IMG/VR virus record: IMGVR_UViG_3300033148_002931
Span: 6,738 to 70,737 of that record
Direction: 5' to 3' (one strand)
Origin: a virus
Length of the DNA stretch: 64,000 nt
In this document: positions 4,021 through 45,467 of the stretch, in pieces
How positions within the stretch are numbered: the stretch's first letter is position 1
Layout: the number at the start of each line of letters is the position of its first letter
Translations under genes and position numbers: made by a program
Notes under the pieces: model-generated
What the model was told of the DNA's origin: nothing
Databases searched by the model: none
The model's input: only the letters and a program-made list of their open reading frames with translations

Positions 4021-4029
4021 TATTTTCTC

Positions 4030-4563
4030 CTATAATAAATTCCTCACATTTACATATCTAGCAAACTTCTGTAATGCTAATCTCAATTCCCCTAATCCCT
4101 GATGGAATACTTGTGCAGGATTAACACTAGCAAATACTATTCCACTAAAATAATCTGATGGAACAACAAGACTGCTTACATTGCTCACTTTCTTTCCAGT
4201 AAAATATGTTACTGTATCACTTCCCAATAGAAGTATAACCTCTTTTCCTATACAGTTAGTAACAACTTGTTGTGCTCCATATTGTAAACATTCTTCATTT
4301 CCGTTCTTAGCATGATGCCAGAGATTACCTATTCTACATCGTTGTAAGTCTATTCCTAGTTTTCCCAATTCTTTAGATAATACTTCTCCCATTCTGCCTA
4401 CCATTGGTCTACCTTTGATTATTTCTTCTTTTCCAGGGAACTCTCCAATGATAGCGATAGGCGAATCAGGATTGTTAGCCATAGGAACACAACCTTTACT
4501 CTTGCATATTGGGCACTTAAATGGATTGCCAAGAACAATTTCTAATGCCTCTTTTTCATTCAT
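4030..4563 (-). CDS. Family-4 uracil-DNA glycosylase-like protein
   Basis: CxxC followed by IIGEFPGKEE...PMVG (GE[A/G]PG motif) and ILLLG; motif B reads NPA instead of HPA. Confidence 0.8.
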   Translation of the reverse strand: MNEKEALEIVLGNPFKCPICKSKGCVPMANNPDSPIAIIGEFPGKEEIIKGRPMVGRMGEVLSKELGKLGIDLQRCRIGNLWHHAKNGNEECLQYGAQQVVTNCIGKEVILLLGSDTVTYFTGKKVSNVSSLVVPSDYFSGIVFASVNPAQVFHQGLGELRLALQKFARYVNVRNLL

Positions 4564-4756
4564 TTTGCTTCTCTTGTAGTTTTTGTAGACGATCTACATA
4601 GCTTGCTATACACGCAGACGAGCAAAAGTCATAAGTGGGATATGTTAGAAAATCACCAGTTCGATTTCCATCAATATATATCTGGCAAAAACATAATTGT
4701 ATCTTATTGGTTTTTACTCCACAATAATCACATAATCTTGTTATTTTCTCACTCAT
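4556..4756 (-). CDS. Small TRASH-like zinc-binding protein
   Basis: CDYCG...FCSSAC. Confidence 0.5.
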   Translation of the reverse strand: MSEKITRLCDYCGVKTNKIQLCFCQIYIDGNRTGDFLTYPTYDFCSSACIASYVDRLQKLQEKQNE

Positions 4757-5142
4757 ATTATTCTCCTTTATAATTATTCATAATATACATCTGTAACCCA
4801 ATGACCATAAACATCTCTAATGTGAATCTTATCTTTGTAAATTTCATATACTAAATTACCATAACCATCTTTAGTTTCATAAATAGCATCAATATCATCA
4901 TTTTCAATTGTTATTGCTATTAGTGGTGGATATCTTTCTAATTTTATTATCATTATTTATTTCCTTGTTCCTCATCAGAAAATTTTCGGAGTGCAGCATA
5001 AATTGCTAAACACTCATCAGAGCAAAACCCACAGATAGGGAGGAACGATCCCGATAAACACAACCAAAGAGCTTTGTTGTCAAGCTCTTTTCCACAAATT
5101 TCACACTTATCTATTTTGTTCGTCATATTGTTCTCCTTTTCA

Positions 5143-6831
5143 TTATTTTATCGACCAATTGCTTCCTATTTTTGCCTCGGCAATGAATGGTACACCAGGG
5201 CATTGTTCTTCAGCCGCTTGTATCATTTCTTTTACTACAAAATCCTTTACTTTTTCTACTTTATCTTCAGGAACACTGAATACTAACTCATCATGCACAA
5301 ACATAATTAAACTAAACGGAAAATCAAATTGCTCATTCCATTTCTTATATATTCTACCAATGGCTACTTTTTGTTGATCTGCTGCTGTTCCTTGAATAGG
5401 ACTATTCTTAGCATTACGCTCTACTTGGTTAGAGTATTCATTCAAATACATTTTCCTACCCATTATAGTAGAAACAGACTGTTTCTTCAAGGATTGAATA
5501 TGTAAAAATGATGCTAAAGTAGGAAATACATTAAAGAAATCATTAAATGCTTTCTCTGCATCAGTAATAGTTCCACCATATCTATCAGTGAACCCTTCAG
5601 GAGACATTCCATAAGTTAATCCATACACAATATTCTTTATTTGCTTTCTCAATGGGTTACTTTTTGTTATTTTCACATTATATATTAATTTAGCCATTTC
5701 TATAAATATATCTTTATCTGTTTGAGTAAACAAATGTATTAGCTTTTTATCCTGTGAGAGATAAGCAGCTATTCTAGCTTCCTGTTGTCCCATATCTACT
5801 ATTAGCATCTTATGTCCAGGATGAGGAATAAAACATTCTCTATAAACAGGAGTAGCTCTACCAGGGATGTTCTGCATATTTGGTCTGGATGAGCTTGTCC
5901 TGCCAGTTTCTGCTCCAATTACTTTATAATCAGAATATATTTTGTCATCTTCTTCTACATAATTTTTTATCCAATTCTTTCCATAGGTACTAGATCGCTT
6001 TTGTATCTTGCGATATTGCAAGAGTTGTTTAGTTATCTTGCCTGCTTTGGTAGTAGCTTGTTTAGGATTAGTCAATCTAGCTAACAAGGTTTTTTCTTGT
6101 GTATTCCGCAATCTAGGAAATCCATTCTTAGAAAGATACTTTTTTGTTTGTATAGATGAACGAGGATTAAATTCAAATTGCTCTGCTAGTTCTTTTGTTG
6201 TCTTTTCATTTTTATTTGCTATACCAGTCCATTTATCTATATCAATCCTTACAGGCATCATATCAATAAATGCCCACATTGCATCTCTATCTACTTCCTT
6301 CCAAATTTTTATTGCATTACTCTTGGCTAATTTGTATTGTTTTTTGCATATCTTTCTAGTAATAAAAGGATCAATAGCCGAGTATTTGATTAGTTCTTTA
6401 TCTAATGTTGTTGCATTTTCAAATCGGCTTTTAATATCTTTATCTATTTCCATATCCAGATAACGTCTAGCAAGATCATTCAAGGCAAATAAATTATAAT
6501 ATCCGCCCCATAGAATACGATCTATCAATAAGGTATCCCATATTCTAGCTCTATAAGGAACATCAGCCCAACGTCTAAGATGAGTAATATCAAACTTAGC
6601 ATTATGAAATATCCAAACAGCCTGGTCTACTCTATCTAATGCTTCTTGAACTTGTGTCTTGTCTGTAATTATATAAACATCTTCTTCATTATAGCAGAAA
6701 GTTAGACAAGCAAATTTACCAGTAGTAGGTCTATGTAACTTGGATTTCTTTGCTTCAAATAATTCGAGATCAATAGCACACCAATCTTTCTTAGAAAGAA
6801 TAGGTGGAAGATCACGTATTATATTCATCAT
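5143..6831 (-). CDS. polA: Family A DNA polymerase with 3'-5' exonuclease
   Basis: ExoI DLE, ExoII HNAKFD, ExoIII YSAID; TGRTSS.RPNMQN; motif A DMGQQEAR; motif B RKQIKNIVYGLTYG; motif C VHDE. Confidence 0.95.
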   Translation of the reverse strand: MMNIIRDLPPILSKKDWCAIDLELFEAKKSKLHRPTTGKFACLTFCYNEEDVYIITDKTQVQEALDRVDQAVWIFHNAKFDITHLRRWADVPYRARIWDTLLIDRILWGGYYNLFALNDLARRYLDMEIDKDIKSRFENATTLDKELIKYSAIDPFITRKICKKQYKLAKSNAIKIWKEVDRDAMWAFIDMMPVRIDIDKWTGIANKNEKTTKELAEQFEFNPRSSIQTKKYLSKNGFPRLRNTQEKTLLARLTNPKQATTKAGKITKQLLQYRKIQKRSSTYGKNWIKNYVEEDDKIYSDYKVIGAETGRTSSSRPNMQNIPGRATPVYRECFIPHPGHKMLIVDMGQQEARIAAYLSQDKKLIHLFTQTDKDIFIEMAKLIYNVKITKSNPLRKQIKNIVYGLTYGMSPEGFTDRYGGTITDAEKAFNDFFNVFPTLASFLHIQSLKKQSVSTIMGRKMYLNEYSNQVERNAKNSPIQGTAADQQKVAIGRIYKKWNEQFDFPFSLIMFVHDELVFSVPEDKVEKVKDFVVKEMIQAAEEQCPGVPFIAEAKIGSNWSIK

Positions 6832-7605
6832 CCTCTCCTACCAGATCATCTAAATTAATCTTCTTTATATCACCAGTAAGAGAGCCACCAATAGACTGAA
6901 CAGAATTGACAAACTTATCCCATATCTCAGTGGATTGTTTTGCAGTTATATCGTAAATAATAAATTCCGCTTTGTAATAAATCTTTTTATCGTTCATTCT
7001 TTATTCTCCTTTTATTTATTCATTATCATTAGTATTTGTGATTTTATATGTTTTAGTCTCCAAACATTAAATTTGGAAACAGGATTACGGGAATATGATT
7101 TAGCTATTATACATTCAACATATTCATTTAATAAGTTTTCCGAGTTAAGATCTTTTATGTATTCAGAATATCTTTTTTGTTTTTCTTTTAATTCCATTCC
7201 ATTCTCCTTAATATGTTCCATAAATAACTAAAAACATTGCAATAAATATAAAGAAAGCTAAAAATACTAAGTAACCCCATTCAATTCCAAATCGTTCTGT
7301 TATAAATCCTGCTAATTTCCCCACAAAAATCAAAACAGTTAAAATACCTAAGACTGCTATTATTGCCCAAAATGTTGTATATATTATTGCTGCCATTTCA
7401 TTCTCCTTTATATATGTTTTGAGTAACAATGTAATGTTACATCATCAGCCTCAAATGTAATCTTAATCTGTCTATTAGATTTTCTTTCCACGGCTATTGA
7501 CATGCCCGATTTGCTATCTGGAACTAGAAAAATATCTTTGGCGTCATCAATATTAAATTCATGTATTTTTGTAATAGTAAGCTCATAATATTTCTTTGTT
7601 TTCAT
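6812..7605 (-). other. Four small hypothetical CDSs (6812-6997, 7012-7221, 7208-7429 membrane protein, 7408-7605)
   Basis: Tightly packed ORFs with AAGGAG RBSs. Confidence 0.55.
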
Positions 7606-7616
7606 TTTATTCTCCT

Positions 7617-8798
7617 TTATATATTCTTTAGACTAAACCATTTGCCATTAACGTAATGATCTTGCCACCAGCCCCAACCCTTTGTGCCATCAAACGGCAT
7701 TTGTATAGCGCCAGGACTTTCATCTCTGTGTTTCCTAAACCCTCCTCTCACTTTCCAAATTACCATATAACCAATACCATCCATTGTAGGTAATTTGTCT
7801 TGTTGTGAGTAATAATCCTTACTGGGCGAATATAACATAATTTGCATCCAGGCTAATATCTCAGCACTTTTAGACCACCTTATATCAGTAGGTTTGGGTA
7901 TCCCACCATGATATTTGTAACTAAATTGTGCAAGAGCAATAAGCGGTGCGCTTAGTTGTTTCGACCCAATAGCAAGAGTAAGATATGCAGTAGACATAGA
8001 CGACTCGCTTAGTTCTCCTCTCACTACAAAATCCATAAAATCTACTACTATAAGACCGAGATTAGTAATTGCAGAAGCATCAGCAATTATTTCGCTTGCA
8101 GATAATGGGTCACAATTAATTAATATTCTACCTTTTTCTTCTTTTGCTAGGTTAGTTATTTCATTGAACCTTAAAGCTATTTCTGGTAACATCATTTCAA
8201 GAGAATAAAATGCTACCTTTTTATCGGGATGTTTTTTGACAAACTCAGCAGTTACATTAATAGCCCAAGTAGTCTTACCAATACCAGGATTGCCCCCAAC
8301 TACTATCATCCCAACTGTAGGAATGCCGCCAAGATGACAATCTAATGGTTTATAGCCTGTCAATATAAAAGGTACTTCACTGGCATCTATTTGGTCTAAA
8401 CTAACCCTACCAGTTTTGCCTTGACCAAATTGATTGGCAACATGACGTATTTCTGCACCATCTATATATTCTCCTCGTTTTAGTTTTTTACTTATTCGTT
8501 CTAATCTATTTCCCATTTGGTATCTTTGTCTAGTTTCTTCTAAGATAGCCAACCAGTCTAATGTACCAGTACCATCGAGGTTTTGAATTGAGTTGACGCT
8601 AGATTGAAATATACCTATCCCTGCCTTCTGTATTAGCGTTTCTGGTTCAGTGTTTCCTTCTTGATAGAACCTAACTAATTCATTATATGGAGGGAACAAT
8701 GACTCAGAACTTGCAGAACTACTAGCAATCTTATTAGTAATGATTAATCCAGAAACTATCTCGCTTGCATCTTCCCATGTTGTACCAATTTGTGCCAT
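7617..8798 (-). CDS. dnaB: DnaB-like replicative helicase
   Basis: Walker A GNPGIGKTT, SLEM, IVVDF, LAQF, KVRGG. Confidence 0.88.
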   Translation of the reverse strand: MAQIGTTWEDASEIVSGLIITNKIASSSASSESLFPPYNELVRFYQEGNTEPETLIQKAGIGIFQSSVNSIQNLDGTGTLDWLAILEETRQRYQMGNRLERISKKLKRGEYIDGAEIRHVANQFGQGKTGRVSLDQIDASEVPFILTGYKPLDCHLGGIPTVGMIVVGGNPGIGKTTWAINVTAEFVKKHPDKKVAFYSLEMMLPEIALRFNEITNLAKEEKGRILINCDPLSASEIIADASAITNLGLIVVDFMDFVVRGELSESSMSTAYLTLAIGSKQLSAPLIALAQFSYKYHGGIPKPTDIRWSKSAEILAWMQIMLYSPSKDYYSQQDKLPTMDGIGYMVIWKVRGGFRKHRDESPGAIQMPFDGTKGWGWWQDHYVNGKWFSLKNI

Positions 8799-8801
8799 TT
8801 A

Positions 8802-9246
8802 TTACTGTCCTTTTAGTGTTCCATAAGCGGATATAAAAAGCAGGATACATAAGCAAGATATTAAGAATGTAAAAATCCATACTTTACAATCAAATCGCTT
8901 TATTAAGAATACACAAATACAACAACCAACAATTATACAAGCTAAAAGAGCGAAGCCATTTACTGTTGCTAAAAATATAGCATGTAGTATTACTGCAATT
9001 TCAGTTTCCATTTTCATTCTCCATTATTTGATATGCTAATAAGTGTAACTTTCCTTCTGTTTCTTCCGTACCATCATACATTACCATAATTGGGTTAATT
9101 AATTGTTGGATAGATACTTCTAGAAATTGTTCCCTGAGAACTTTCCAGAACGTTTTTGCTTTTTTGTCATCTGTAAAACAAAATATTATAGTAGGTAATT
9201 CGTTTCCACATTCATCAATTGAAACTAAACGACTTTTATATTTCAT
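8802..9246 (-). other. Two small CDSs (8802-9017 two-TM membrane protein; 9001-9246 hypothetical)
   Basis: Overlapping ORFs between the helicase and primase. Confidence 0.5.
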
Positions 9247-10094
9247 TAATTAACTCCTAATTCCATCTGTAATAATTCTTCTAAGTGAGGTCTATACCTT
9301 ATAAACAAATCGTTCACATCTTTCATACCATCAGCCCATTCTATCTTCATTACTTTACCCCTCCAGCCTAAGTTGGCAGACAACCAAACAGCTTCTACCA
9401 CCTCACCATCATCAGGAATAATAACTATTTTTTTTCTTATTCCAGAGAGAGCATCAGGGTTCAATCTCTTCCCAGTAGTAGTAGACATTGAAGCATACCC
9501 TAGTTGGTAAATTGATATAGCATCTATTATTCCGAAAGTAAGAAAAACAGTCTGTTTGTCTATTACTCTTTGCCATGATGGCACAAATAACATATCAGGG
9601 TCTTGCCCTTTGGGATTAATATACTTACTTTCAGTTACCTTATCTTTTCCTGCTCTTGCTGTACCACCAATGACATGATTATGCTGATCGAATATAGGAA
9701 ACACTATCCAATTATCTCTATAACCTAATCGCAAATCTTTTATTGTTTGTAAGTTTATACCTCTCTCTTTCATATAGATTGTCTTATTATTCTCTATACA
9801 TTGAAGATGAGCTTGTTCAGTAATACGAATTAGGCTATGACTTCTCATCCAAATAGTCCAGGGATTAGTAAAATAATATTTCTTGGTAGGAACTACATTG
9901 CCTGATATTAAACTTAATTTATCTAATAAATCAGAAGTTTTGCCTTTTGCGTCACAAGAAAAACATTTGTAGCTATCCTCATAAACAAAGAAGCTAGGTC
10001 TAGTATCATCATGGAAAGGACAGAGAGCACAAATATAGTGATCGTAGCGTGTTGCCTTCTCTAAATACTGAAAAATCTCATCTAAATTATTCAT
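9246..10094 (-). CDS. dnaG: DNA primase (CHC2 zinc finger + TOPRIM)
   Basis: CPFHDDTRPSF...CFSC, ERGI, KYIN, GIIDA, PDD, KDVND. Confidence 0.9.
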   Translation of the reverse strand: MNNLDEIFQYLEKATRYDHYICALCPFHDDTRPSFFVYEDSYKCFSCDAKGKTSDLLDKLSLISGNVVPTKKYYFTNPWTIWMRSHSLIRITEQAHLQCIENNKTIYMKERGINLQTIKDLRLGYRDNWIVFPIFDQHNHVIGGTARAGKDKVTESKYINPKGQDPDMLFVPSWQRVIDKQTVFLTFGIIDAISIYQLGYASMSTTTGKRLNPDALSGIRKKIVIIPDDGEVVEAVWLSANLGWRGKVMKIEWADGMKDVNDLFIRYRPHLEELLQMELGVN

Positions 10095-10116
10095 TATCTA
10101 AATCGCTCATTATTTA

Positions 10117-10446
10117 CTAGCCACCAGGGTAAGGGGTTGGAATATTAATATATTCGTTTTTAATGTCGATGGCTATTTTTTCAATCCATGTACTACCATC
10201 ATATTGAGCAGGGAAATAAATATATTTATTATCCTTAGCAATAAATCGCGGCATTTGTGGGCCGCCATAACCTGTCTGAAAGTTTTTGGTCAATATTGGG
10301 TGAGTATGCTTAATTTCAATTCCAGGAATTATCATACTATTCGGAGTCCATCCTGGCGAATAATCATCGGGAGTTTCCTGATAGATAATAATCCCGCTTT
10401 CCCAATCAAAATCTGATATAGTTAATTCTTCTTTTATTGTTGTCAT
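10117..10446 (-). CDS. Hypothetical protein, paralog of 39516-39857
   Basis: Shared blocks FDW..GIIIYQ, HPIL, PR.IAKD..YIYF...YDG.TW.EKIAI. Confidence 0.65.
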   Translation of the reverse strand: MTTIKEELTISDFDWESGIIIYQETPDDYSPGWTPNSMIIPGIEIKHTHPILTKNFQTGYGGPQMPRFIAKDNKYIYFPAQYDGSTWIEKIAIDIKNEYINIPTPYPGG

Positions 10447-10479
10447 ATTATATTCCTTTTATTCGCTATTTATTTTTTG

Positions 10480-10935
10480 TTAGTTTGCTGCCAATAACTC
10501 TGGTATTTGTTCCTGTTCCTGTCGTGCTGTGTTCCATGCTAAGCTAACATCTTTATTATCTATATCGGATTTATCATTTAGTATCTCTATCATTCTATCA
10601 AGGATCAAACCACCTTCTACTGCATATCTACACCACTTAATAATATTTGCTTTGGGATAATCTTCCCAAATTACAAGATAATCTTTATAAACTGTATATA
10701 TCCACTCAGCAAATTGTATTGCTTCATATATTTCCAGAAATCTGCTTTGAACAATAGGCTTACCAGATTTGGAATTATATATTCTATATCCTTTACCAAC
10801 CGCTATATAACCTTCAGTTCCTATCATTAGCCCTGTTAGTGTCATGGATTTATTTGTGAGCTTAGAATTGAATTTTACAATTTCATAAGCTTTTCCATTT
10901 ATGAATACAATATTATCTTCATTTATATTTTTCAT
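10480..10935 (-). CDS. Hypothetical protein
   Basis: 151-aa ORF. Confidence 0.55.
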   Translation of the reverse strand: MKNINEDNIVFINGKAYEIVKFNSKLTNKSMTLTGLMIGTEGYIAVGKGYRIYNSKSGKPIVQSRFLEIYEAIQFAEWIYTVYKDYLVIWEDYPKANIIKWCRYAVEGGLILDRMIEILNDKSDIDNKDVSLAWNTARQEQEQIPELLAAN

Positions 10936-10959
10936 AACTAATTACTTTTATCCCCTTCG

Positions 10960-10997
10960 GTGGGGCATACGCTGTATAATAAATTCGTATGCCCCAC
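10960..10997. other. Intergenic inverted repeat (stem-loop)
   Basis: GTGGGGCATACG...CGTATGCCCCAC. Confidence 0.6.
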
Positions 10998-11034
10998 ATC
11001 AAAGAAAGGAAGGAATAAGTAATTCAATTATACC

Positions 11035-11850
11035 TTATTCAAAATCTGCATCAGATTGAGGAGATTGAGTAAGAGTTTCATTATCATCTTCATCAAAATC
11101 AGGCATATCAGATTGAGTTTGTTCTGATGGGGCTTGTGTTTCAGTAGTAGTTTCTTCCCAAGGAACTTCCTCTTGATCAGGTTCATCATAGGACATAATA
11201 GAACCATTAACAATCCAGCCATCTTTCAATGTCACGGAGAATTGGTTAGCCGCGTGTAGAATACGTTTCTGTAATTCAGGAAGAATATTGTCTGAATATT
11301 CAATTGGGCCTAATTCCCATGCTTTAGTAGCATCCAGAAAGTCTTGTAAGTCGCTGGTGTATTTGGAAGTGGGTTTGGTATAGCCTACTAAATCCTTACC
11401 CTCAGCGCTTATTTCGCCAACCCCGAAATGATAACGCATCATGGCCGTAATTTCTAACCCTGCATATCGTTCAGGTTCTAGGATTTCCAGTAAGACCATA
11501 AAATATTCATAAGAATATTCATGTTTTTTGCCATCACGAACAAATGATACTTCTTTCAAGCGCGGTTCTGGAATACCACTATCACGAACAACAAACTCTT
11601 TTACTTTTACAGTGAATGTGCCTTTTTCGGGTTTGAAACTAAACATTATAGTCTCATCCTCAGATAACGATACAATCCACTTGCCTGCCTTGATATTATC
11701 AGGACAATCCTCAGCGAAGAGTATAATCGGATTTTGTGGATCATCTTTGAATAACACTTGCACCTTGCTTTTATCTTTGGAAATTGCTACCTTAGCCAAT
11801 CCCCATCTTGCACTTCCACCACTTGATATAGTTTTTGGTTTGTATGACAT
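11035..11850 (-). CDS. Probable single-stranded DNA-binding protein
   Basis: Lies in the replication module; strongly acidic C-terminal tail ending ...DADFE; AAGGAG RBS before ATG 11850. Confidence 0.5.
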   Translation of the reverse strand: MSYKPKTISSGGSARWGLAKVAISKDKSKVQVLFKDDPQNPIILFAEDCPDNIKAGKWIVSLSEDETIMFSFKPEKGTFTVKVKEFVVRDSGIPEPRLKEVSFVRDGKKHEYSYEYFMVLLEILEPERYAGLEITAMMRYHFGVGEISAEGKDLVGYTKPTSKYTSDLQDFLDATKAWELGPIEYSDNILPELQKRILHAANQFSVTLKDGWIVNGSIMSYDEPDQEEVPWEETTTETQAPSEQTQSDMPDFDEDDNETLTQSPQSDADFE

Positions 11851-11854
11851 AATA

Positions 11855-14496
11855 TTATTTTTCTCCTTTACTATAAAATTCTTTTGCACATTTTTCACAA
11901 CAAAATTCGGCATATGGAATCATTCCTAAAGAATAGTTAAGATTAAATTCATGTATTCCAAGTCCATAAAACTCTTTTTTGCAATTAGTACATATATGAG
12001 GGATCGCATCCTTTTGATACATATCTTGTAATTTTTTAATTTCTTTTTCATTCATTCTTATTTCTCCTTTTATTGTTTAATCTTCCCAAGTTAATTCGTC
12101 ATCAAAGTCATTCTTAGAGGTTGTACTTGGGTTATTATTCTCTACTTCATTTTCTTTTATACGACTACGGTCTAACAATTGTTGTTCACAATATCGTAAT
12201 CCTTCAACCGTCAGAATAGGAGGAGGAACTTCTTCTCCCACTAATTGCAATCGCAGAATTTCTGCTGCATTATCTATGTATTCGTGTTTGACAGGAACAT
12301 CTACTACTACCCATACTGTTATCTGCTCATCTATACGCCAAGATGGAATAAATGTTGGTTTACTTGGCTTATATCGCTCAATATCTATTTGCGCCTGAGA
12401 CCAAGCGAAATAAAGGGGGGAAGTTATTTCTTTAGTCATTGTTTATCCTCTATCATATCTATATACTTCTTCACGCGTTACTAAAAAGTTTTGTGTAGTA
12501 TCAATAAGTTTCCAACCATAAATTGGTTTATCAGTAACCCATTGATATAGTTCTATATCATCATCAAATACAAGACGAAAACGACTATCATTTATTTGCA
12601 TCCAGACATATGTTTGAAAGTTTTCATACCCATCTACGTCTAATTCAGCATAATCAATGTTATCAGTAGTAAATTCTTCTGTACCCATAACAATTTTATA
12701 TCTTCTACTCATTGTTTATTCTCCTTTCAATCCTTTGTTAGTTGTAAAACAATCAATATCGCTATCCACGCTAAAGTATTCCCCGCACAAATTCCCCACA
12801 ATAATTGTGTGATTAATAGATTAGATATAATTATATTAATACCAGCAATTATAAAAGATAGAATAATGAGCATTATGGCTATTCTTAAATAATATTCTCT
12901 AATATCGTCCATTATTTTTTATTCCTATTCTTATTGCTAATTTTTCTAACTTTCTTGTTTCCCATAATTTTTGTCTGTGATGAGTGTGATATTTATTCCA
13001 CACCGATGCTATAAAAGGCATATTACGCTTTTTGCATAAAACATTATAACCTTGCCGAACAGCCCGCTTGAAGGCATATTGTTCGCCAATAAGCGGATTA
13101 TTCTCATCATTAGGGTTCATTATTGCCACTCCACTATGCACAACTGGTATCCCAGAAAGTCGTAACAGACAAATAGTAATATTTTGTACCCTTTTATCTT
13201 TGCTGTCTATTGGGCAAATTACATGAATAAAAGTAACATCTACTGTTTGATCTTCTGTTGACTTATATTGATATTGGCTGATATTAAATATATCATGTTC
13301 ATCTTGCAGTTTGTATAATTCATCTTGCTGATCTAACATAATATCTAATCTGTGTTCCATGTTTATTCCTTCCTTTTTTTTATATATTATTTAGGCTAAT
13401 CCACCGTGTTTGTCAATAAGATCATTGATTACTTCAACGGGAGTGTAGGGATATACATCTTGTGTTAATTTAGTATCCCCTCCGTCTCCTTCAGCATACT
13501 TAGTAATAAGATCATCAGTAGCCGAAGGAAAACCAGCCTCCACATGAGTATAAAAATAGGCATCATCTATTCTAGGTTGACAATACATAGAACGACCAAC
13601 TTGCACACTGATATTGAAACCATCTTTACAGACAATCCGTGGAGCTAAATCGCGGAATGTCACTTTAGTCAGTTGTGTAATAGTCTTATGTTGTTCAAGA
13701 TACTTATTTATATCAAATTTCTTTATCATTATATTTCCTTTCTGATTATTTTTATCTATACTTATCATAACACAGAAACAGTCTGTTTTACATTAGAGAA
13801 TTATGAGAGTTTATAGCAAGATTGACATTTCTATTGGTTTATGTCTATAAGAATCATATTTTATATCATAACCCAAAGCTATATGTCCATACCATTCTTG
13901 AGTAAGGCTATTAGAGAATTGTTTTACATAAAATGTGAGATTATTGATTTTAGTATATCCAACTCTGTAATCTTGTTTCTCTGTTATATCATAAACAGTT
14001 CTGTATTTCTCAGCCCAAACAATATTATCTCCTGTGAGAATAACAACTTTTTGATTTTTCTCTTTCATCTTATTCTTTCTCCAGTGATTGTGGTTCAAAT
14101 TGATATATTTCTTTCATCACATAATTTAATAAGTAGGTGTGATAAATAAAAATATCGTATTCGGCATCATCTGTAAATTGAGTTCCTAATAAATCTATAT
14201 TGTTTTCAAGTCTCTCTTTAATTATTATCCATTCTGGTAACATCAACATTTATACCTCTCCTTTCATCTTATTTTCTCTCTATTGAGTTATAGTAACAAT
14301 CAAAAATAGCATTAGCCATTGTATCCCCATTCCCTTTGTAATATATTTCATTGTAGTCTATATCTACTATTATTACAACCCATCCAGACCCGCCCGACCA
14401 TTTATTATTCTGTGCCATTAGTTCTGCTCCATGTTTATTAGCTAAATATTCTAATTCTGTAAGAGCTTGTTCATAATTGATAATCATTGTAATCAC
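11855..14496 (-). other. Run of small hypothetical CDSs (11855-12055, 12077-12439, 12443-12712, 12727-12912, 12899-13360, 13391-13768, 13811-14098, 14269-14496)
   Basis: Co-oriented ORFs, most with AGGA-type RBSs; typical phage early/middle genes. Confidence 0.6.
13764..13810 (-). promoter_or_regulatory. Conserved early promoter with Pho-box-like repeat and palindromic operator
   Basis: Minus strand CTCTCATAATTCTCTAAT-GTAAAACAGACTGTTTCTGTGT-TATGAT; the same layout recurs at 16565, 18474, 20329 and 24347. Confidence 0.7.
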
Positions 14497-14827
14497 TCCT
14501 CATATATTGCATTGCAGTTTTTGGGTTGCACTTAGGGCAAAGTTTTTTACTATTCTTATATCGTTTCAGTTGTCTTTCCCATTGCATTGCAGTTTTTTGG
14601 TCAGAGCACAACCAGACACGTATTACATTATAATCTATTGCAGTCTTATTACAATATTGCAGTATTCTAGCTCCACGTCCTGACCGATGTCTTTGTAGCC
14701 TTCCAGGAACATTATTGGTACTGCCAATATAGTGTTGTGCGGAATGTTTAGCAGTACCAATAGTTTGTTGGAAATGGATCAGATAGACAAACCACTTATT
14801 AGACTTCAATCTGATCCCAGACATCAT
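14471..14827 (-). CDS. GIY-YIG nuclease
   Basis: VYLIHF...HYIGSTNNVPGRLQRH...ERQLK. Confidence 0.8.
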   Translation of the reverse strand: MMSGIRLKSNKWFVYLIHFQQTIGTAKHSAQHYIGSTNNVPGRLQRHRSGRGARILQYCNKTAIDYNVIRVWLCSDQKTAMQWERQLKRYKNSKKLCPKCNPKTAMQYMRSDYNDYQL

Positions 14828-15092
14828 TAATCATTCGTTCAAAGTGATTAATAATAATTCGTCTCTCATCTTTATCATATATCTCATCGTTGACAGATAT
14901 AAAGTCACGAACACAATCTGATACATAATCCTCTTTATTGCTATTATAATCCTTTGCATCATACTCAGTGTAGCCTAAACATTGTAAGTATTCATTTACT
15001 TGATTATGTAACTCATTCACTCTATCATTCCAGTTCTGATTTCTTTTCATTGTCTTGCTCCTCTCTTTTTTCAGGTTTCCAATGATCCCCAT
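14799..15092 (-). CDS. Hypothetical protein
   Basis: ORF overlapping both neighbours. Confidence 0.45.
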   Translation of the reverse strand: MGIIGNLKKERSKTMKRNQNWNDRVNELHNQVNEYLQCLGYTEYDAKDYNSNKEDYVSDCVRDFISVNDEIYDKDERRIIINHFERMINDVWDQIEV

Positions 15093-15552
15093 TATATTGA
15101 TCTAAGTTTGCTGGCATAATCATAGCATATTTTTCCTCACCACTGACTTCCATCGGGTGATTAGGGGAATAAAACGTCAATTTGACTGTTTCACCTTTGT
15201 CGAACCCTGACAAGGCATCAATTAAATATTGTGGATTGATACCAATCTCTAAGATTGGCTCTTTGTCCGGCACAATCTGACTTGTGTCAGGAAAAGTAAC
15301 TTTTTCAAGCGATTGCACAATCCAATTTCCAGTCTTACCGGTAACCGCGTCTATTCCATGCAATCCCTCAGGAAAGTTTTCAATTGCATTGGTTGCATGT
15401 AAACGGAAACCGTCAACCGCTTCCAGATGACCATTTTCATTGTTGACCGCTTGCAGTGCTAATCTTGCGGCGTCTTTTGAAACGGCTTTTTTCAGCCATT
15501 TCATGGTCTTATTGTCATCTCTATCTAATTCTAATTTGATTATTTCATTCAT
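15025..15552 (-). CDS. Truncated DNA polymerase III beta-clamp-like protein
   Basis: SKDAARLAL, AVDGFRL, FPD..IVP, INPQYLIDAL and YAMIMP match DnaN domain 2/3 motifs. Confidence 0.7.
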   Translation of the reverse strand: MNEIIKLELDRDDNKTMKWLKKAVSKDAARLALQAVNNENGHLEAVDGFRLHATNAIENFPEGLHGIDAVTGKTGNWIVQSLEKVTFPDTSQIVPDKEPILEIGINPQYLIDALSGFDKGETVKLTFYSPNHPMEVSGEEKYAMIMPANLDQYNGDHWKPEKREEQDNEKKSELE

Positions 15553-16208
15553 TGCATTTTCTCCTCTTTTTTGTGATAATCAATTATATCTTTAGCTTCC
15601 TCAATTATGTATTTCTCACTATCATATCCATAATATCCCCAACACGAATCAATTGATTCGCCATCTGGATCAATCACATTATATCCAAATACTGTACCAG
15701 TCAAATAATTATCATAAGTAGCAACCTCATTCCTAAGATACTCTTCAATTTTCTTTATTCGTTGCTTAGTAATGTAAGTCCATCCATATTCAGATTTTAG
15801 TTTCTCATATGAAACATATATCCAACCCACTTGACCACTATCCCAAGGGCAAGAGAAAGATGAAGTTTTCATAGTAATACCACTATGATTGTAGAGATAA
15901 AGTGGTAGAATTATATAATTCTTTTCAATGTATTTGTCTACTCTCTCTTGTTGTTCTTCACTAAATCCGTATAAAGAACAATCCATATATTCATCATCTG
16001 AAATAGTGACACTAAATTCAATCAAGTCTAATTGAAAATCTGATGGTCGTTCATAATCGTGTTTATCTCCTAATGTATAGCGATTATGCCAGCATATCAT
16101 TGTGCCCAAACTATCCCAACAATCTCGTGGTGACATAGGATAATTCTCATATTCAATTCTAATATTATAATCTTTATAACTTGTTTCGTTATATATTTCG
16201 TTATCCAT
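15549..16208 (-). CDS. Acidic hypothetical phage protein
   Basis: 219-aa ORF containing LPLYLYNHSGIT..CPWDSGQVGWIY. Confidence 0.6.
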   Translation of the reverse strand: MDNEIYNETSYKDYNIRIEYENYPMSPRDCWDSLGTMICWHNRYTLGDKHDYERPSDFQLDLIEFSVTISDDEYMDCSLYGFSEEQQERVDKYIEKNYIILPLYLYNHSGITMKTSSFSCPWDSGQVGWIYVSYEKLKSEYGWTYITKQRIKKIEEYLRNEVATYDNYLTGTVFGYNVIDPDGESIDSCWGYYGYDSEKYIIEEAKDIIDYHKKEEKMQ

Positions 16209-18517: not shown

Positions 18518-18607
18518 AATATTTTCATATTGCAGTTTAAAATTATATTGCAGTTTATTTATATTGCACTATTGCAGTCTATCTTAATCCAACTGCCAAA
18601 GAATCCT

Positions 18608-18659
18608 TGAACGTTTGTGCTAGTTATCTGATTAATCGGATTAATAAAACGTTTGTTCT
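18608..18659. promoter_or_regulatory. Two near-consensus SOS (LexA) boxes
   Basis: TGAACGTTTGTGCT (18608) and AAAACGTTTGTTCT (18646). Confidence 0.5.
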
Positions 18660-18687
18660 AAAAATATCGCGGTCTCTGTAAATAATT

Positions 18688-18721
18688 ATGCCCCCCTGTT
18701 AGAATTCTAACAGGGGGGCAT
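18688..18721. repeat. Perfect 34-bp palindrome (terminator or cruciform)
   Basis: ATGCCCCCCTGTTAGAATTCTAACAGGGGGGCAT. Confidence 0.75.
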
Positions 18722-20328
18722 TGGTATGCTATGCTACTAATGTTACGTTGACTGGTAGTACAGTCCAGTCGTCTAAATCATCACTGTTGACACTTGAAAA
18801 TCCGTTATTAAGCCATGCCCCACCCGCGTATACTTCAGGATGATGTTTTTTATCAAATTCGATAAACAATTCAAACAATTGATTATTGGTATATTCATTA
18901 ATAGTAGGAAAGCCATTAACTGATTGAATATTATTCCATTCAGGATATACCATCTTATACAACCCTATAATAATGTTTGATTGATGATCACTTTCCTGAA
19001 ACAATAATTCTACTTTATTCTTATCTAATGCTACAGTTTTTAACATGATTTTACCTTTCTTTTCTTATGATTAATTTTACTCTTTTGAGTAAATTGAAAA
19101 ATCTAATTGAAGTAGCATATCTTATCAGGATATGCTACTTGGATTAGATTATTATCCCGATGATACTAAATCAGGATAATAGTTATCCAACAGTATAGCC
19201 AATAGAATCGAATCTTTTCGGTTGTGGACTTCCTGATCAATAAAATTAATCAAATAATCCATAGAATAAAACGTCATTTCTTGTACTTGCGATAATACTT
19301 TTTCTATCATACTATCATCGCCTTTAACTCTTTTTTAACTTCCCTTGCTACTTCACCACGCCAACCCCCCGCATTCGCTAAAAAGTATAATACAACTGAT
19401 TTGGCAGAATCAAACATATAATGGTCTGTAATATCATCCAATTCTACCATTGCGTCAAGGTAAGGCTGTGCAGCGTAGTTAACATTCTTCCAATTATCGC
19501 GAATTTCAATCGCGATTTCCCATAGTTTGCGGTTTTTCATGATTTTATCTTTCCTTTGTTGATATCCGATATGATTAATTTCCTTAACAGGGGGGATTGT
19601 ATTTTCTTAGCGCGTTCAAGAGCCGCTTCCCGCTTTATCCAAGCTTCCCATTTTTTACTTGTCGTTCGTTCCATAATTTACCATCCTTTATATTGATTAT
19701 TCTATCCCAGGTAGGATAGATTAATAAAAAAATTGGTATAATCCTATCCTGGTGTAGATAGGATTATATGGATTATTCTATTAATTCGTGTATTCCGACA
19801 ACCATCGAGCCGTTTCAGAATAAGTCAAAAATGGGCCGTCAATATATTCTATTGATGTGAATGGTTTATTTTCACCTTTACATTGGATAATTTGTGGGCC
19901 TAAAATTGAATTGCTATATTCAACTATGTAATATGCTTTGGTATTTTCTGGTATTTTCATATCATCCTTCCTTAAGTTAATTTTATACTTATAACAAAAG
20001 TGTAAATTTTATACCGATACAATCTTGCTATACTTGTACCGATACAAGTATACAGTTATCTTATCTTATACGTGTCCATACCTTCACGTGATATTCCAGT
20101 GTGCTTAATTAATCCGCGGTATTCGCAATAATCTAAAAAGCTAGAATACTCATGCCAGTTTTTGTTTATGCCTGATGCTTTTTGATGATCGGATTTTAAA
20201 GACATCCCATCATAAGTGTAACCTTCTGCTAGCATAAATATACAATCTAACTTTTCTTGAGCCGTTAACTTGCGTTCTGTAGTCATGTCAATTATCCTTT
20301 CAATACAATTTGGTTAACTTCTATATTT

Positions 20329-20385
20329 ATTATAGCAAATTTCAGAAGTGATTGTATTAATCTAGCATTAAAATCAGATGAGAGT
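20329..20385 (-). promoter_or_regulatory. Early promoter with three 11-bp-phased repeats
   Basis: CTCAT/TTAAT/TTAAT at an 11-bp period, 21 nt upstream of the TATAAT of an extended TGc-TATAAT. Confidence 0.65.
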
Positions 20386-20824
20386 ATTTTAATATAGCCT
20401 TACTTGTCAGACAACCTTTACATTTTATCGTTTCTTAGAGAGCGTGGTAACGCGCGTTACCTTTGATTTATCAATTATAGGTCATTTACTACCTATCCAC
20501 TATTCTAATAATCTTTTACCATTATAAGTGACACCATAGTGTAGGTTATACAATAAGGATACCAGTCCCTGATAATAAACAAATGTAATATAAACAACAA
20601 ATGTAGTATACATTATACATGGTATCATATGCTATTGGTTGTCACATATACTATGCATAATAACATAAGCAATAGGTTGTCACTTATAATACATTGTGTA
20701 TCATATCTATTATTGACAATCATTATCATTTAGCTATTGCGATTATATACTAGTACAATCACTTGCTACTACTACTATGTGCTATTGCGATTATATGCAA
20801 TAAGATTAGATCGCTGGTATTGTT

Positions 20825-21070
20825 AGTACATTTGTTCTAATTATAATTATTAGCACACTTGTTCTAGTTCCTGGAACTAGAACACCAGAACGTTTGTTCT
20901 AATTATCCTACTTGTCAGACAACTACCAATTATTAGAATACTTGTTCTAATGTTACATGGTATGTCAGAACATTTGTTCTAGACCAGCCGGTAGAACGTT
21001 TGTTCTAATCTTCCGGCTTCTAGTAGTAGAACGTTTGTTCTATTATCCCCATTGTTAGCACATATGTTCT
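20825..21070. repeat. Array of eight LexA/SOS-type boxes (AGAAC-N4-GTTCT)
   Basis: Boxes at 20825, 20852, 20887, 20935, 20967, 20993, 21028 and 21057; four perfect, four with one mismatch. Confidence 0.8.
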
Positions 21071-21092
21071 AGTATTCTACCTACCATACCAA

Positions 21093-21182
21093 CATTAACC
21101 CTACATTAATCTCACATTAGAATTAGATTAGAGCGCCCCCTACCACACTAGCATTAAAAGAACATTAATCTAAGATGAGAGT
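21093..21182. repeat. 11-bp-periodic CATTAA-type direct repeats
   Basis: CATTAA/CATTAA/CATTAG/GATTAG at 21093, 21104, 21115, 21126; CATTAA/CATTAA/GATGAG at 21152, 21163, 21174. Confidence 0.65.
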
Positions 21183-21597
21183 TTGGATAGAGTAACGCGG
21201 GAAGTGCGTGTATACTAACGCACCAGTATCCCTGAATTTTGTCTCGGAATTTTGATATTGCAGTTTTGGGATTATGTATATACAATCAATTTCTAAAATT
21301 TTGTTCCCATTTTTTCGTATTTATTTTATCTAAAACAGTATGTTTCTATTCTTACTTGCATTGCAGTATTGTTCATTTATATCACAACTAACAAGATTTC
21401 TTTATTGTTCAAATGGGAAATATGATGCAAATACATTTACATAACACAGAACCGCCATTATCCCTAACCCTATCTTTACAAATGGATTAGACACAATTTC
21501 TATAAGTGCAAAGGATATTAATGCAATACCCATTAACGTTATTCTTGATATTATTAGTGTTTTTCTTGTATTATTCATTTTTATTATTTCTCCTTTT

Positions 21598-42212: not shown

Positions 42213-42219
42213 GAAAATA

Positions 42220-44551: not shown

Positions 44552-44562
44552 GGAGAAAGAAT

Positions 44563-45465: not shown

Positions 45466-45467
45466 TA

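What the first reader, a model, noticed from the sequence alone, without database searches (positions are those of the whole stretch)
20825..21070. Eight SOS boxes in 246 bp: candidate LexA decoy array
Seen: AGTACATTTGTTCT, AGCACACTTGTTCT, AGAACGTTTGTTCT (three times), AGAATACTTGTTCT, AGAACATTTGTTCT and AGCACATATGTTCT, with starts 26-48 bp apart. They lie in non-coding DNA more than 500 bp from the nearest downstream gene start, with a 25-bp palindrome at 20860-20884; two more boxes occur at 18608 and 18646. Established: GAAC-N4-GTTC is the LexA site of Firmicutes, Actinobacteria and Chloroflexota (AGAAC-N4-GTTCT in Dehalococcoides), and SOS promoters usually carry 1-3 boxes. Inference: replicating phage DNA could titrate host LexA and derepress SOS genes without DNA damage. 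Alternatively, LexA may hold the early region silent until the host is stressed. The phage also encodes its own RecA.
Basis: partly seen in the sequence, partly recalled or inferred. Interest (0 to 1): 0.85.

Follow-up and report, generated by a model that had tools for sequence, protein, structure and literature searches.

The report
Cluster of SOS-repressor-type sites in phage
A 70-kb phage carries eight closely spaced copies of the DNA palindrome that the bacterial DNA-damage repressor LexA recognises in Gram-positive-type bacteria, and similar clusters turn up in many unrelated phages, which suggests that phages commonly plug into the host damage alarm, although who binds these sites has not been shown.

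Summary
Eight same-orientation 16-mers, consensus TAGAAC-N4-GTTCTA, lie at 20824-21071 in a 1.1-kb non-coding gap. Two weaker copies lie at 18607 and 18645. The genome is a 70.7-kb, 34% GC phage with no lysogeny genes detected.

A LexA matrix built only from lexA promoters of 30 Clostridia-phylum genomes ranks all eight boxes in the top 14 sites of the genome.

The array is not unique:
- Twin perfect TAGAAC boxes occur in 13 viral contigs (9 lineages, 37-62% GC).
- Twin TCGAAC-N4-GTTCGA boxes occur in 52 contigs (26 lineages).
- Two composition-matched control palindromes gave 1 contig each.
- Box counts reach 7-12, always clustered at one locus per genome.
- The lineages share no protein, and neither Pfam nor my LexA profile found a LexA gene in them.
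- Cultured Gordonia phage Marietta has three TCGAAC boxes in a divergent promoter region.
- In Chloroflexota MAGs, twin TAGAAC boxes sit directly upstream of lexA.

Best reading (0.38): host LexA binds here and gates the early/replication genes. The decoy idea is possible (0.12) but untested. A phage-encoded binder remains a strong rival (0.33), because the host is unknown and TetR-type regulators use similar palindromes.

The parts
20824..20839 (+). box 1, TAGTACATTTGTTCTA (one core mismatch)
   Evidence: A + strand promoter-like TTGTTA-16-TATAAT (20820-20847) spans it.
20851..20866 (+). box 2, TAGCACACTTGTTCTA (one core mismatch)
   Evidence: PWM score 13.3 bits.
20860..20884 (.). 25-bp perfect palindrome. 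It reuses the right half of box 2 and adds one inverted TAGAACA half-site.
   Evidence: (I14)
20886..20901 (+). box 3, CAGAACGTTTGTTCTA (perfect core)
   Evidence: Top PWM hit in the genome, 19.6 bits. A minus-strand promoter-like TTGGTA-16-GATAAT (20929-20902) ends right at it.
20934..20949 (+). box 4, TAGAATACTTGTTCTA (one core mismatch)
   Evidence: PWM score 10.3 bits.
20966..20981 (+). box 5, CAGAACATTTGTTCTA (perfect core)
   Evidence: PWM score 17.5 bits.
20992..21007 (+). box 6, TAGAACGTTTGTTCTA (perfect 16-mer)
   Evidence: PWM score 13.3 bits.
21027..21042 (+). box 7, TAGAACGTTTGTTCTA (perfect 16-mer)
   Evidence: PWM score 15.5 bits.
21056..21071 (+). box 8, TAGCACATATGTTCTA (one core mismatch)
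   Evidence: PWM score 11.4 bits.
18607..18622 (+). weaker outlying box, TTGAACGTTTGTGCTA
   Evidence: PWM score 10.6 bits. It lies between a terminator and the next minus-strand gene start.
18645..18660 (+). weaker outlying box, TAAAACGTTTGTTCTA
   Evidence: PWM score 7.8 bits.
18688..18721 (-). intrinsic-terminator-like hairpin (15 pairs, 9 G-C) ending the transcription unit just upstream of the two outlying boxes
20287..21401 (.). 1.1-kb non-coding gap that holds the array and at least four other repeat families
20056..20286 (-). first gene downstream of the gap in the direction of transcription. It is a 76-aa ORFan and a possible small DNA-binding protein.
   Evidence: No Pfam or PHROG hit. 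No homologue besides itself. AF2 model pLDDT 59.8, helix-helix-beta hairpin.
2088..16208 (-). replication and recombination block further downstream on the same strand: clamp-like protein, primase, DnaB-like helicase, family-A DNA polymerase, RecA/UvsX-like recombinase

Best explanation
The array is a cluster of operator sites of the Gram-positive (Cheo-box) LexA type, core GAAC-N4-GTTC, here extended to TAGAAC-N4-GTTCTA. Dimers of the host SOS repressor LexA would bind them.

The cluster sits at the head of the minus-strand block that runs from small early genes into the phage's replication and recombination genes. Two weaker boxes stand at the start of the next transcription unit.

Proposed mechanism (inferred, not shown): in an undamaged host, LexA occupies the cluster and damps or blocks transcription through or out of this control region. 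When RecA filaments trigger LexA self-cleavage, the block is lifted, so early and replication gene expression is tied to the host's SOS state. This is the logic phage GIL01 uses with host LexA. Soaking up LexA on replicating phage DNA would be a side effect of the same binding.

Shown: the sites exist, they are far beyond chance, they match an independent LexA matrix, and like clusters recur in many unrelated phages. Inferred: that LexA is the binder, and what binding does.

I put about 0.5 on 'host LexA binds here' and 0.38 on binding plus gating as the main role.
For: 1. Independent matrix. A PWM was built from 23 perfect-core boxes found within about 450 bp either side of the LexA-domain start in 30 Clostridia-phylum loci. 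It ranks array boxes 1st to 5th in the 70.7-kb genome, and all 8 fall in the top 14. Thirteen sites score 10 bits or more, against a mean of 2.6 (maximum 5) in 50 shuffles.

2. The exact 16-mer is used at lexA. A genome-contig scan for twin perfect boxes gave 41 loci. In 7 of them the adjacent ORF is LexA (PF01726 + PF00717 or phmmer): 5 Chloroflexota, 1 Peregrinibacteria, 1 MAG labelled Proteobacteria. One low-GC Clostridia-phylum genome has tcTAGAACgttcGTTCTAat upstream of lexA (L219).

3. Recurrence without shared proteins. Twin TAGAAC boxes occur in 13 viral contigs, which form 9 DNA clusters at 37-62% GC. Five of the 9 clusters carry 5-12 boxes. In each record searched whole, the boxes sit in one cluster of 0.2-2.2 kb, apart from one outlying 1-mismatch site in G408. 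G001 (71.5 kb, 60% GC, 10 boxes) shares no protein with this phage by tblastn at E<0.01. Across flanks, blastp found only one cross-lineage pair.

4. Controls. Two composition-matched palindromes gave 1 contig each. The TCGAAC-N4-GTTCGA form gave 52 contigs, or 26 clusters, with up to 10 boxes.

5. A case with a known host. Gordonia phage Marietta has 3 perfect TCGAAC boxes, the only ones in its genome, in the 657-bp divergent region between gp77 and gp78. From my recall, TCGAAC-N4-GTTCGA is the LexA box of Mycobacterium-type actinobacteria.

6. Related phages keep the core. L012 and L260 (78% aa identity in two large proteins, one terminase-like) carry boxes at the same place, with TAGAAC flanks in one and TCGAAC flanks in the other. 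The core GAACA-NN-TGTTC is kept.

7. No phage LexA. PF01726 is not found in G000. It is below cut-off in 5 other array-bearing records. A LexA HMM that recovers 7 of 7 positive controls hits 1 of 4,023 ORFs from the viral and metagenome loci plus G000.

8. No repressor, ParB, TetR or integrase domain was found in 73 + 35 ORFs of G000.

9. The variation is not compensatory. All 4 core mismatches are one-sided. This argues for a protein-binding site rather than a selected hairpin.

10. Context elsewhere is regulatory. In other phages the clusters lie upstream of DnaB-like or other helicase genes (L274, L255), next to a ribonucleotide reductase gene (L017), or in a divergent promoter region (Marietta).
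Against: - The host is unknown, so it is not shown that its LexA reads GAAC-N4-GTTC. Hints are weak and mixed: Bacillota for the ABC substrate-binding protein; Patescibacteria, Bacillota, viruses and Bacteroidota for RmlD.
- If the host were a typical Patescibacterium or a Bacteroidota member, the reading fails. 0 of 29 Patescibacteria lexA loci hold a perfect GAAC-N4-GTTC. Bacteroidetes SOS repressors use GGA-N5-TCC or CTAA-N5-TTAG (PMC8565304, passages read).
- The palindrome is not exclusive to LexA. In the same genome scan, 7 Ignavibacteria/Kapaibacterium loci have the twin boxes beside an NmrA/epimerase gene, and 4 flanking ORFs carry TetR_N; I infer these are the 4-member cluster from three Bacteroidota and one gammaproteobacterial MAG. 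C. glutamicum RolR binds TGAAC-N4-GTTCA (PMC9210681, passage read).
- Eight boxes are far more than a promoter needs. Most lie 370-800 bp upstream of the promoter-like sites nearest gene 20056-20286.
- All 8 boxes, plus the 2 outliers, share one orientation. The spacer ends in TT on the + strand in 9 of 10. LexA does not require this; iterons typically show it.
- The outer T and A flanks are conserved in 14 of 16 half-sites here, more than in the Clostridia-phylum lexA boxes.
- Some metagenome contigs carry 21 boxes in 6.2 kb. That looks more like an element-specific dispersed operator.
- The twin-box searches fixed the flanks, so flank conservation across lineages is partly imposed by the search.
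Confidence: 0.38

Rival explanations
1. A phage-encoded DNA-binding protein, not LexA, binds the boxes. The array would then be a set of operators or 'stoperator'-like sites, iterons of a replication origin, or a centromere- or packaging-type platform. Its likeness to the LexA box would be convergence on a common palindrome class.
For: - All boxes share one orientation, with a directional spacer and extended unit similarity beyond the box (families D1, D3, D4). This is typical of iterons.
- The gap holds several other repeat families, as origins and control hubs do.
- It precedes the replication gene block.
- The first gene downstream is a 76-aa ORFan whose low-confidence model is helix-helix-beta hairpin.
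- L017 and L018 share an unannotated gene embedded within their arrays.
- L285 and L295 have 21 and 14 boxes spread over whole contigs.
- TetR-type proteins bind such palindromes (PMC9210681).
- L012 and L260 change the flank while staying related, as co-evolving protein-site pairs do.
Against: - No HTH, repressor, Rep, ParA/ParB or TetR domain was found in 108 ORFs scanned by Pfam.
- No protein is shared between array-bearing lineages beyond one pair. Yet the same 12-16 specified bases recur in at least 35 DNA clusters with GC from 32 to 69%. Independent phage proteins would not be expected to converge like this.
- The two controls gave 1 contig each.
- DnaA boxes are not enriched (22 against 25.7 expected).
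- The boxes match a matrix derived only from bacterial lexA promoters.
Confidence: 0.33
2. The array's main job is to soak up LexA. As phage DNA multiplies, 8-10 sites per copy titrate the repressor and switch on host SOS genes without DNA damage.
For: - The box number (8 here, 7-12 in other phages) exceeds what repression of a promoter needs.
- Most boxes are not at the proximal promoter of the downstream gene.
- Everything that supports LexA binding also applies here.
- I found nothing in print against it, or on it at all.
Against: - There is no test of SOS induction.
- Many phage clusters have only 2-3 boxes in promoter-like positions. That is the ordinary regulatory pattern and points to a regulatory origin.
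- The two outlying boxes sit right after a terminator and before the next unit, again a regulatory position.
- Titration needs high-affinity sites, yet half the boxes carry a core mismatch.
Confidence: 0.12
3. Another host factor, for example a TetR-family regulator with TAGAAC-N4-GTTCTA specificity as seen beside NmrA/epimerase genes in Ignavibacteria, Kapaibacterium and some Bacteroidota MAGs, binds the array.
For: - Seven loci have twin boxes next to NmrA/epimerase genes, and four flanking ORFs carry TetR_N.
- The outer T/A flanks are as strictly kept there as in the phage.
- The phage's 34% GC and GH25 lysin do not exclude such hosts.
Against: - A narrow, low-copy pathway regulator is an unlikely target for dozens of unrelated phages.
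- The TCGAAC form in an actinobacterial phage fits LexA better.
- No such regulator is known to me to control phage genes.
Confidence: 0.07
4. The array is a relic of local tandem duplication of one operator-containing unit, with no function for the array as such.
For: - The boxes share one orientation, and flanks are similar between some units (D3, D4).
- Spacing is irregular, 26-48 bp.
Against: - The inter-box sequence has diverged while the right half-site is invariant in 8 of 8 boxes. This indicates selection on the boxes.
- Independent arrays exist in many lineages.
Confidence: 0.05

Closest known systems
Host-LexA control of Bacillus thuringiensis phage GIL01 (SOS boxes in promoter P1, helped by phage gp7)
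   Same: A phage without a classical repressor of its own uses host LexA bound to a set of GAAC-type SOS boxes to hold early and replication gene transcription until the SOS response. I saw only the abstracts of PMC4551915 and PMC6182141 in the search listings.
   Different: GIL01 is a small temperate tectivirus with a few boxes at defined promoters and known co-factors (gp7, and the LexA-like gp6). Here there is a 70-kb tailed phage, 8+2 boxes spread over 246 bp well upstream of the nearest gene, no gp7- or LexA-like gene detected, and no evidence of lysogeny.
Bacterial SOS operators of the Cheo-box type (CGAAC-N4-GTTCG in B. subtilis and S. aureus; C. difficile boxes such as GAGAACAAATGTTTGT and TAGAACATAAGTTTTT)
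   Same: Same core, same 4-bp spacer, purine at spacer position 1 and pyrimidine at position 4. Motifs are from Table 1 of PMC9578287 and Table 2 of PMC4234289 (passages read). Twin boxes occur upstream of lexA in MAGs.
   Different: Chromosomal promoters carry 1-3 boxes that overlap the promoter. Here there are 8 in a row, one orientation, strict outer T/A flanks, and no clear overlap with the promoter of the next gene.
Host global-regulator sites in virulent phages: CtrA boxes in Alphaproteobacteria phages ('lytic deferment')
   Same: The concept is the same: lytic phages carry binding sites for a host master regulator to time their gene expression. I saw only the title and abstract of PMC9437464, in the listing.
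   Different: A different regulator and a different motif. That work does not, as far as I saw, describe arrays of 8-12 sites.
Iteron origins and centromere arrays (plasmid/phage ori iterons; F sopC-type palindrome arrays) - recalled, not looked up
   Same: Multiple same-orientation repeats with a palindromic core in a non-coding region near replication genes.
   Different: No Rep, ParA or ParB gene was found. DnaA boxes are not enriched. Spacing is irregular rather than fixed. The same core recurs in phages that share no proteins.
TetR-family operators such as RolR TGAAC-N4-GTTCA (C. glutamicum)
   Same: A near-identical palindrome geometry (PMC9210681, passage read). Twin TAGAAC boxes lie beside TetR and NmrA genes in MAGs.
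   Different: Those are single operators at one operon. No TetR gene was detected in the phage.

Membership tests
LexA (SOS) operator, Gram-positive/Cheo-box type | Palindromic core GAAC-N4-GTTC | tested here: met
   4 of 8 boxes are perfect and 4 of 8 have one mismatch. There are 5 perfect cores in the window against 0.45 expected.
LexA (SOS) operator, Gram-positive/Cheo-box type | Scores as a site with a matrix built from bona fide lexA-promoter boxes | tested here: met
   All 8 boxes are in the top 14 genome-wide. 13 sites score 10 bits or more, against 2.6 in shuffles. The matrix sites are themselves inferred from position upstream of lexA, not from binding assays.
LexA (SOS) operator, Gram-positive/Cheo-box type | The host encodes a LexA that recognises this motif | not testable with these tools
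   The host is unknown. No close cultured relative was found. Atlas taxa hints are mixed.
LexA (SOS) operator, Gram-positive/Cheo-box type | The site overlaps or adjoins the promoter of the regulated gene | tested here: inconclusive
   Promoter-like matches touch box 1 (+ strand) and boxes 3 and 4 (minus strand). The scan found 31 matches against 20.8 +/- 4.8 expected in this AT-rich stretch. The proximal promoter-like sites of gene 20056-20286 are more than 370 bp away.
LexA (SOS) operator, Gram-positive/Cheo-box type | LexA binds in vitro or in vivo and is released on DNA damage | not testable with these tools
   This needs EMSA, ChIP or reporter assays.
Iteron-type replication origin | Same-orientation repeats next to or inside an initiator (Rep) gene, with an AT-rich unwinding element and often DnaA boxes | tested here: inconclusive
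   Same orientation: met. No initiator domain was found in 108 ORFs. DnaA boxes are not enriched: 22 against 25.7 expected, with 1 near-match in the gap.
Partition centromere (parS/sopC-like) | Array of palindromes adjacent to parA/parB-type genes | tested here: not met
   No ParA, ParB or other partition family was among the Pfam hits for the 73 + 35 ORFs.
Phage repressor/Cro operator set | Operators flank a repressor or cro gene with a recognisable DNA-binding domain | tested here: not met
   No HTH or S24 family was found. The only candidate is a 76-aa ORFan with a low-confidence model (pLDDT 59.8).
CRISPR array | Regular repeat-spacer periodicity with identical repeats of 25-40 nt | tested here: not met
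   16-nt boxes, irregular 26-48 bp spacing, variable left halves.
Structured RNA / hairpin array | Compensatory changes keep the stem | tested here: not met
   All 4 half-site changes are one-sided and break or weaken pairing. There is no Rfam hit in the gap.

The most novel reading that the evidence does not exclude
Clusters of host-type LexA boxes are a widespread, so far undescribed module of tailed-phage genomes. I found at least 35 DNA-level lineages in IMG/VR with two flank flavours, including cultured Gordonia phages. The large arrays (7-21 boxes), such as this one, would act as LexA sponges: they would switch on the host SOS response from replicating phage DNA, or lock the phage genome into a LexA-held dormant episome without any phage repressor.
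Probability: 0.15. Interest if true: 0.85.

Novelty: new variant of a known kind. Interest (0 to 1): 0.62.

Why it matters
Several phages are already known to use LexA (GIL01, CTX, 186), but as single cases with one to three boxes. If the arrays found here bind LexA, then reading, or manipulating, the host damage alarm would be a common and convergently evolved feature of apparently virulent phages across Bacillota-, Actinomycetota- and Chloroflexota-type hosts.

That would have three consequences:
- It bears on how antibiotics that induce SOS change phage infection outcomes.
- It gives a sequence-only clue to the host, because the flank flavour would track the host's LexA.
- It makes the 'LexA sponge' idea directly testable in a culturable system, Gordonia phage Marietta and its relatives on Gordonia terrae.

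If a phage protein binds instead, the result is still a recurrent non-coding genome landmark of unknown function.

Tried and rejected
- **Relatives of this phage.** None were found. blastn of the gap against cultured phages gave no match. Protein-seeded scans of viral contigs with the 210-aa neighbour and with the DNA polymerase found nothing. The metagenome-contig scan found nothing. So conservation of the array among kin could not be examined.
Only 1 of the 120 loci held a real box cluster. I dropped it as unspecific.
- **Host prediction.** tblastn of polymerase and terminase gave at most 33% identity to cultured phages of scattered hosts. The ABC substrate-binding protein gave only 27-29% identity hits in 3 of 401 Bacillota_A-phylum genomes. 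RmlD searches in three phyla (301 genomes each) used too strict a cut-off (1e-40) and returned nothing, so they say nothing.
- **Sequencing runs:** none was listed.
- **Cultured relatives of other array-bearing contigs.** L274 and L223 had no match. Only L225 was identified, as Gordonia phage Marietta.
- **The 76-aa neighbour.** Folding gave a low-confidence model and there is no homologue for an alignment, so I ran no fold search.
- **Rejected readings:** CRISPR array, RNA hairpin array, DnaA-box origin, and parS with ParAB (see the membership tests).
- **Literature.** Searches for LexA-box arrays, titration or decoys in phages found no description of such arrays. These searches cover only the held open-access library. 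The Patescibacteria LexA paper (Sanchez-Osuna 2017) and the Dehalococcoides LexA paper are not in it and were not read.
Full report
**What is there**

The window is part of a 70,737-bp record with a 114-bp end overlap, so it is a circularly assembled, complete phage genome. GC content is about 34%.

Genes run on the minus strand from about 28.5 kb down to 2 kb:
- a GH25 endolysin and many small ORFs, then
- a clamp-like protein, primase, DnaB-like helicase, family-A DNA polymerase and a RecA/UvsX-like recombinase.

From 28.7 kb onward genes run on the plus strand: terminase, portal, a tape-measure protein and a large sugar/transport gene block.

No integrase, repressor, ParA/ParB, TetR or LexA domain appeared in the 73 + 35 ORFs scanned with Pfam, or in a six-frame PF01726 search. 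The phage therefore looks virulent, although absence of hits does not prove it. It has no close cultured relative.

**The observation**

Between gene 21402-21578 and gene 20056-20286 (both minus strand) lies a 1.1-kb gap without a credible ORF. Eight 16-mers sit at 20824-21071, spaced 26-48 bp start to start. All are written the same way round: t-TAG(A/T/C)A(C/T)-(A/G)(T/C)(T/A)T-GTTCTA.

- The right half GTTCTA is invariant in 8 of 8.
- The left half is perfect in 4 and carries one mismatch in 4.
- GAAC-N4-GTTC occurs 5 times in the window against 0.45 expected, and 4 of these are in the array.
- The 16-mer with up to 2 mismatches occurs 11 times against 3.68 expected. Ten of the 11 are the eight boxes plus two weaker ones at 18607 and 18645.
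- Those two weaker boxes lie just after a strong terminator-like hairpin (18688-18721, minus strand) and before the next minus-strand gene.
- The 25-bp palindrome at 20860-20884 is real and adds one inverted half-site.

The one-sided, uncompensated changes argue against a selected hairpin and for a dimeric protein site.

**Is it a LexA-type site?**

I built a matrix from sequences that owe nothing to the phage. It uses 23 perfect-core boxes lying within about 450 bp either side of the LexA-domain start in 30 loci of Clostridia-phylum genomes.

- Scanned over the whole phage genome, it ranks array boxes 1st to 5th, and all eight fall within the top 14.
- 13 sites score 10 bits or more, against a mean of 2.6 and a maximum of 5 in 50 shuffles.

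The exact extended 16-mer is also used at lexA. A scan of one genome per species for two perfect 16-mers 10-40 bp apart gave 41 loci. In 7 of them the neighbouring ORF is LexA: five Chloroflexota MAGs, one Peregrinibacteria, and one labelled Proteobacteria.

The scan also gave results against an exclusive LexA assignment:
- Seven Ignavibacteria/Kapaibacterium loci have the twin boxes beside NmrA/epimerase genes.
- Four flanking ORFs carry TetR_N; I infer these are a 4-member cluster from three Bacteroidota and one gammaproteobacterial MAG.
- A published TetR regulator binds TGAAC-N4-GTTCA (PMC9210681, passage read).

So the palindrome is a LexA operator in some phyla but is not exclusive to LexA.

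**The array is not a one-off**

| Pattern scanned in IMG/VR (two perfect 16-mers, 10-40 bp apart) | Contigs | DNA clusters |
|---|---|---|
| TAGAAC-N4-GTTCTA | 13 | 9 (37-62% GC) |
| TCGAAC-N4-GTTCGA | 52 | 26 |
| Control TACAAG-N4-CTTGTA | 1 | - |
| Control ATCTTG-N4-CAAGAT | 1 | - |

- Five of the nine TAGAAC clusters hold 5-12 boxes. TCGAAC clusters hold up to 10.
- In the records I searched whole, nearly every box lies in one cluster of 0.2-2.2 kb, and the reversed control pattern is almost absent. The one exception was a 1-mismatch site in G408, about 4.5 kb from that record's cluster.
- G001 is a 71.5-kb, 60% GC phage with ten boxes in about 780 bp. It shares no protein with this phage by tblastn at E<0.01.
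- Across all array flanks, blastp found only three cross-locus relations: L017-L018 (one unannotated gene), L241-L245, and L012-L260.
- L012-L260 is instructive. These two related phages (78% identity in two large proteins, one terminase-like) carry boxes at the same place. One has TAGAAC flanks and the other TCGAAC flanks, while GAACA-NN-TGTTC is kept.
- A metagenome scan added 20 more loci (15 clusters). Some have 14-21 boxes on 3.5-6.2-kb contigs.
- A LexA profile that recovers 7 of 7 positive controls hits 1 of 4,023 ORFs in all these loci plus G000. PF01726 is not found above cut-off in six array-bearing records. The phages therefore do not appear to bring their own LexA.

**A case with a known host**

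Locus L225 is Gordonia phage Marietta. It is 100% identical to MH669007, and close relatives include WhoseManz, BiPauneto, Yndexa, Sukkupi, NadineRae and IDyn.

Its only three perfect TCGAAC-N4-GTTCGA boxes lie within 61 bp, in the 657-bp region between the divergent genes 77 and 78. The leftward genes include a WhiB-like factor and a DNA helicase.

From recall, not from a call, TCGAAC-N4-GTTCGA is the LexA box of Mycobacterium-type actinobacteria. If that holds for Gordonia, this is a phage carrying a cluster of its host's own SOS boxes in its main control region.

Elsewhere, clusters lie upstream of a DnaB-like helicase (L274) and another helicase (L255), beside a ribonucleotide reductase (L017), or upstream of terminase (L013, L012/L260).

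**What speaks against LexA here**

- The host is unknown. Language-model neighbours point to Bacillota for the phage's ABC substrate-binding protein, and to a mix of Patescibacteria, viruses, Bacillota and Bacteroidota for its RmlD.
- Typical Patescibacteria do not use this box: 0 of 29 lexA loci have a perfect core.
- Bacteroidetes use other motifs (PMC8565304, passages read).
- Eight boxes in one orientation, with a directional spacer and strictly kept outer flanks, resemble iterons or element-specific operators.
- The promoter-like matches that touch boxes 1, 3 and 4 are weak evidence in AT-rich DNA. The scan found 31 matches against 20.8 +/- 4.8 expected. The proximal promoter-like sites of the downstream gene are more than 370 bp away.
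- The first downstream gene is a 76-aa ORFan that could be a small DNA-binding protein. Its model is poor (pLDDT 59.8) and it has no homologue.

**Verdict**

The most economical explanation for the same core recurring in dozens of unrelated phages, against two near-empty controls, is a shared and conserved host binder. LexA is the only known candidate with that phyletic breadth.

| Reading | Probability |
|---|---|
| Host LexA binds the array (overall) | about 0.5 |
| - mainly SOS-gated control of the early/replication block | 0.38 |
| - primarily a decoy | 0.12 |
| A phage-encoded binder | 0.33 |
| Another host factor | 0.07 |
| A relic of duplication with no function | 0.05 |

The decoy idea is neither supported nor excluded. 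My literature searches found no description of such arrays. The closest known system is host-LexA control of phage GIL01, for which I saw only abstracts in the listings. Supplementary files were not consulted.

Noticed in passing
window 40096-55171 (+): A large sugar/transport gene block lies inside the late-strand region. It holds RmlD, DegT aminotransferase, at least six glycosyltransferases (including a GT17-like one), a short Glu/Gln-tRNA-synthetase-like ORF, and a complete ABC importer: permease 47636-48550, binding protein 48547-49494, ATPase 49491-50237.
   Followed up: partly
window 14511-21367, minus strand: The 8-mer ACTGCAAT occurs 18 times in the window against 3.0 expected. Fourteen copies are on the minus strand within the early region. 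Three stand in a row at 18529-18578, just downstream of the two outlying boxes, and two lie at 21257 and 21360, upstream of the array. Some copies overlap ribosome-binding site plus ATG. It may be a phage promoter or leader motif.
   Followed up: partly
window 20356-20384 and 21094-21192; 20733-20796; 20401-20415 and 20909-20923; 20608-20683: Four further repeat families lie in the same gap: ATTAATCT..AGATGAGAG (5 copies on both edges of the gap), GCTATTGCGATTATAT (2 copies), TACTTGTCAGACAAC (2 copies), and a 38-nt tandem pair. None is explained.
   Followed up: no
window 26017-26092 (-): Rfam reports a tRNA at 29.4 bits (threshold 29). ARAGORN calls no tRNA in the window.
   Followed up: no
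L285 (6,255 bp), L295 (3,540 bp), L296 (1,423 bp), metagenome contigs: Box density is extreme: 21, 14 and 8 boxes with up to 1 mismatch. Many are embedded in a 32-bp palindrome, TTTCACAA-TAGAAC-N4-GTTCTA-TTGTGAAA. The contigs have few long ORFs under code 11. The nature of the element is unknown.
   Followed up: partly
L078 (part of a 190-kb viral contig): A different, asymmetric motif, CTATTGTTCTA, recurs about every 0.5 kb in both orientations. It looks like a phage-specific promoter or intergenic element and shows that TTGTTCTA alone is not diagnostic.
   Followed up: no
L024, L029, L039, L042, L043, L052, L062 (NmrA/epimerase side); L036, L044, L046, L056 (inferred TetR side): In Ignavibacteria/Kapaibacterium MAGs, twin perfect TAGAAC-N4-GTTCTA boxes lie beside NmrA/epimerase-like genes. 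In three Bacteroidota MAGs and one gammaproteobacterial MAG they lie beside a clustered ORF family that I infer to be the four TetR_N hits. This looks like a TetR-type regulon that uses the same palindrome.
   Followed up: partly
L297-L326 (Patescibacteria lexA loci; L304 left out as unpublished): None of the 29 loci has a perfect GAAC-N4-GTTC within 1.5 kb of lexA. GTATA/TATAC-type palindromes recur instead. The one Peregrinibacteria locus with TAGAAC twin boxes (L028) is therefore atypical.
   Followed up: partly
L012:5232-5281 and L260:6897-7036: Two related phages share a conserved TATA-rich stretch upstream of a terminase-like gene. Further on, one carries two TAGAAC-flanked boxes and the other three TCGAAC-flanked boxes.
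   Followed up: partly
L017:6294-6779 and L018:574-1572: This is the only protein shared between two otherwise unrelated array-bearing contigs (34% identity over 162 aa). It lies inside the arrays and has no Pfam or PHROG hit. It is a candidate array-associated protein.
   Followed up: partly
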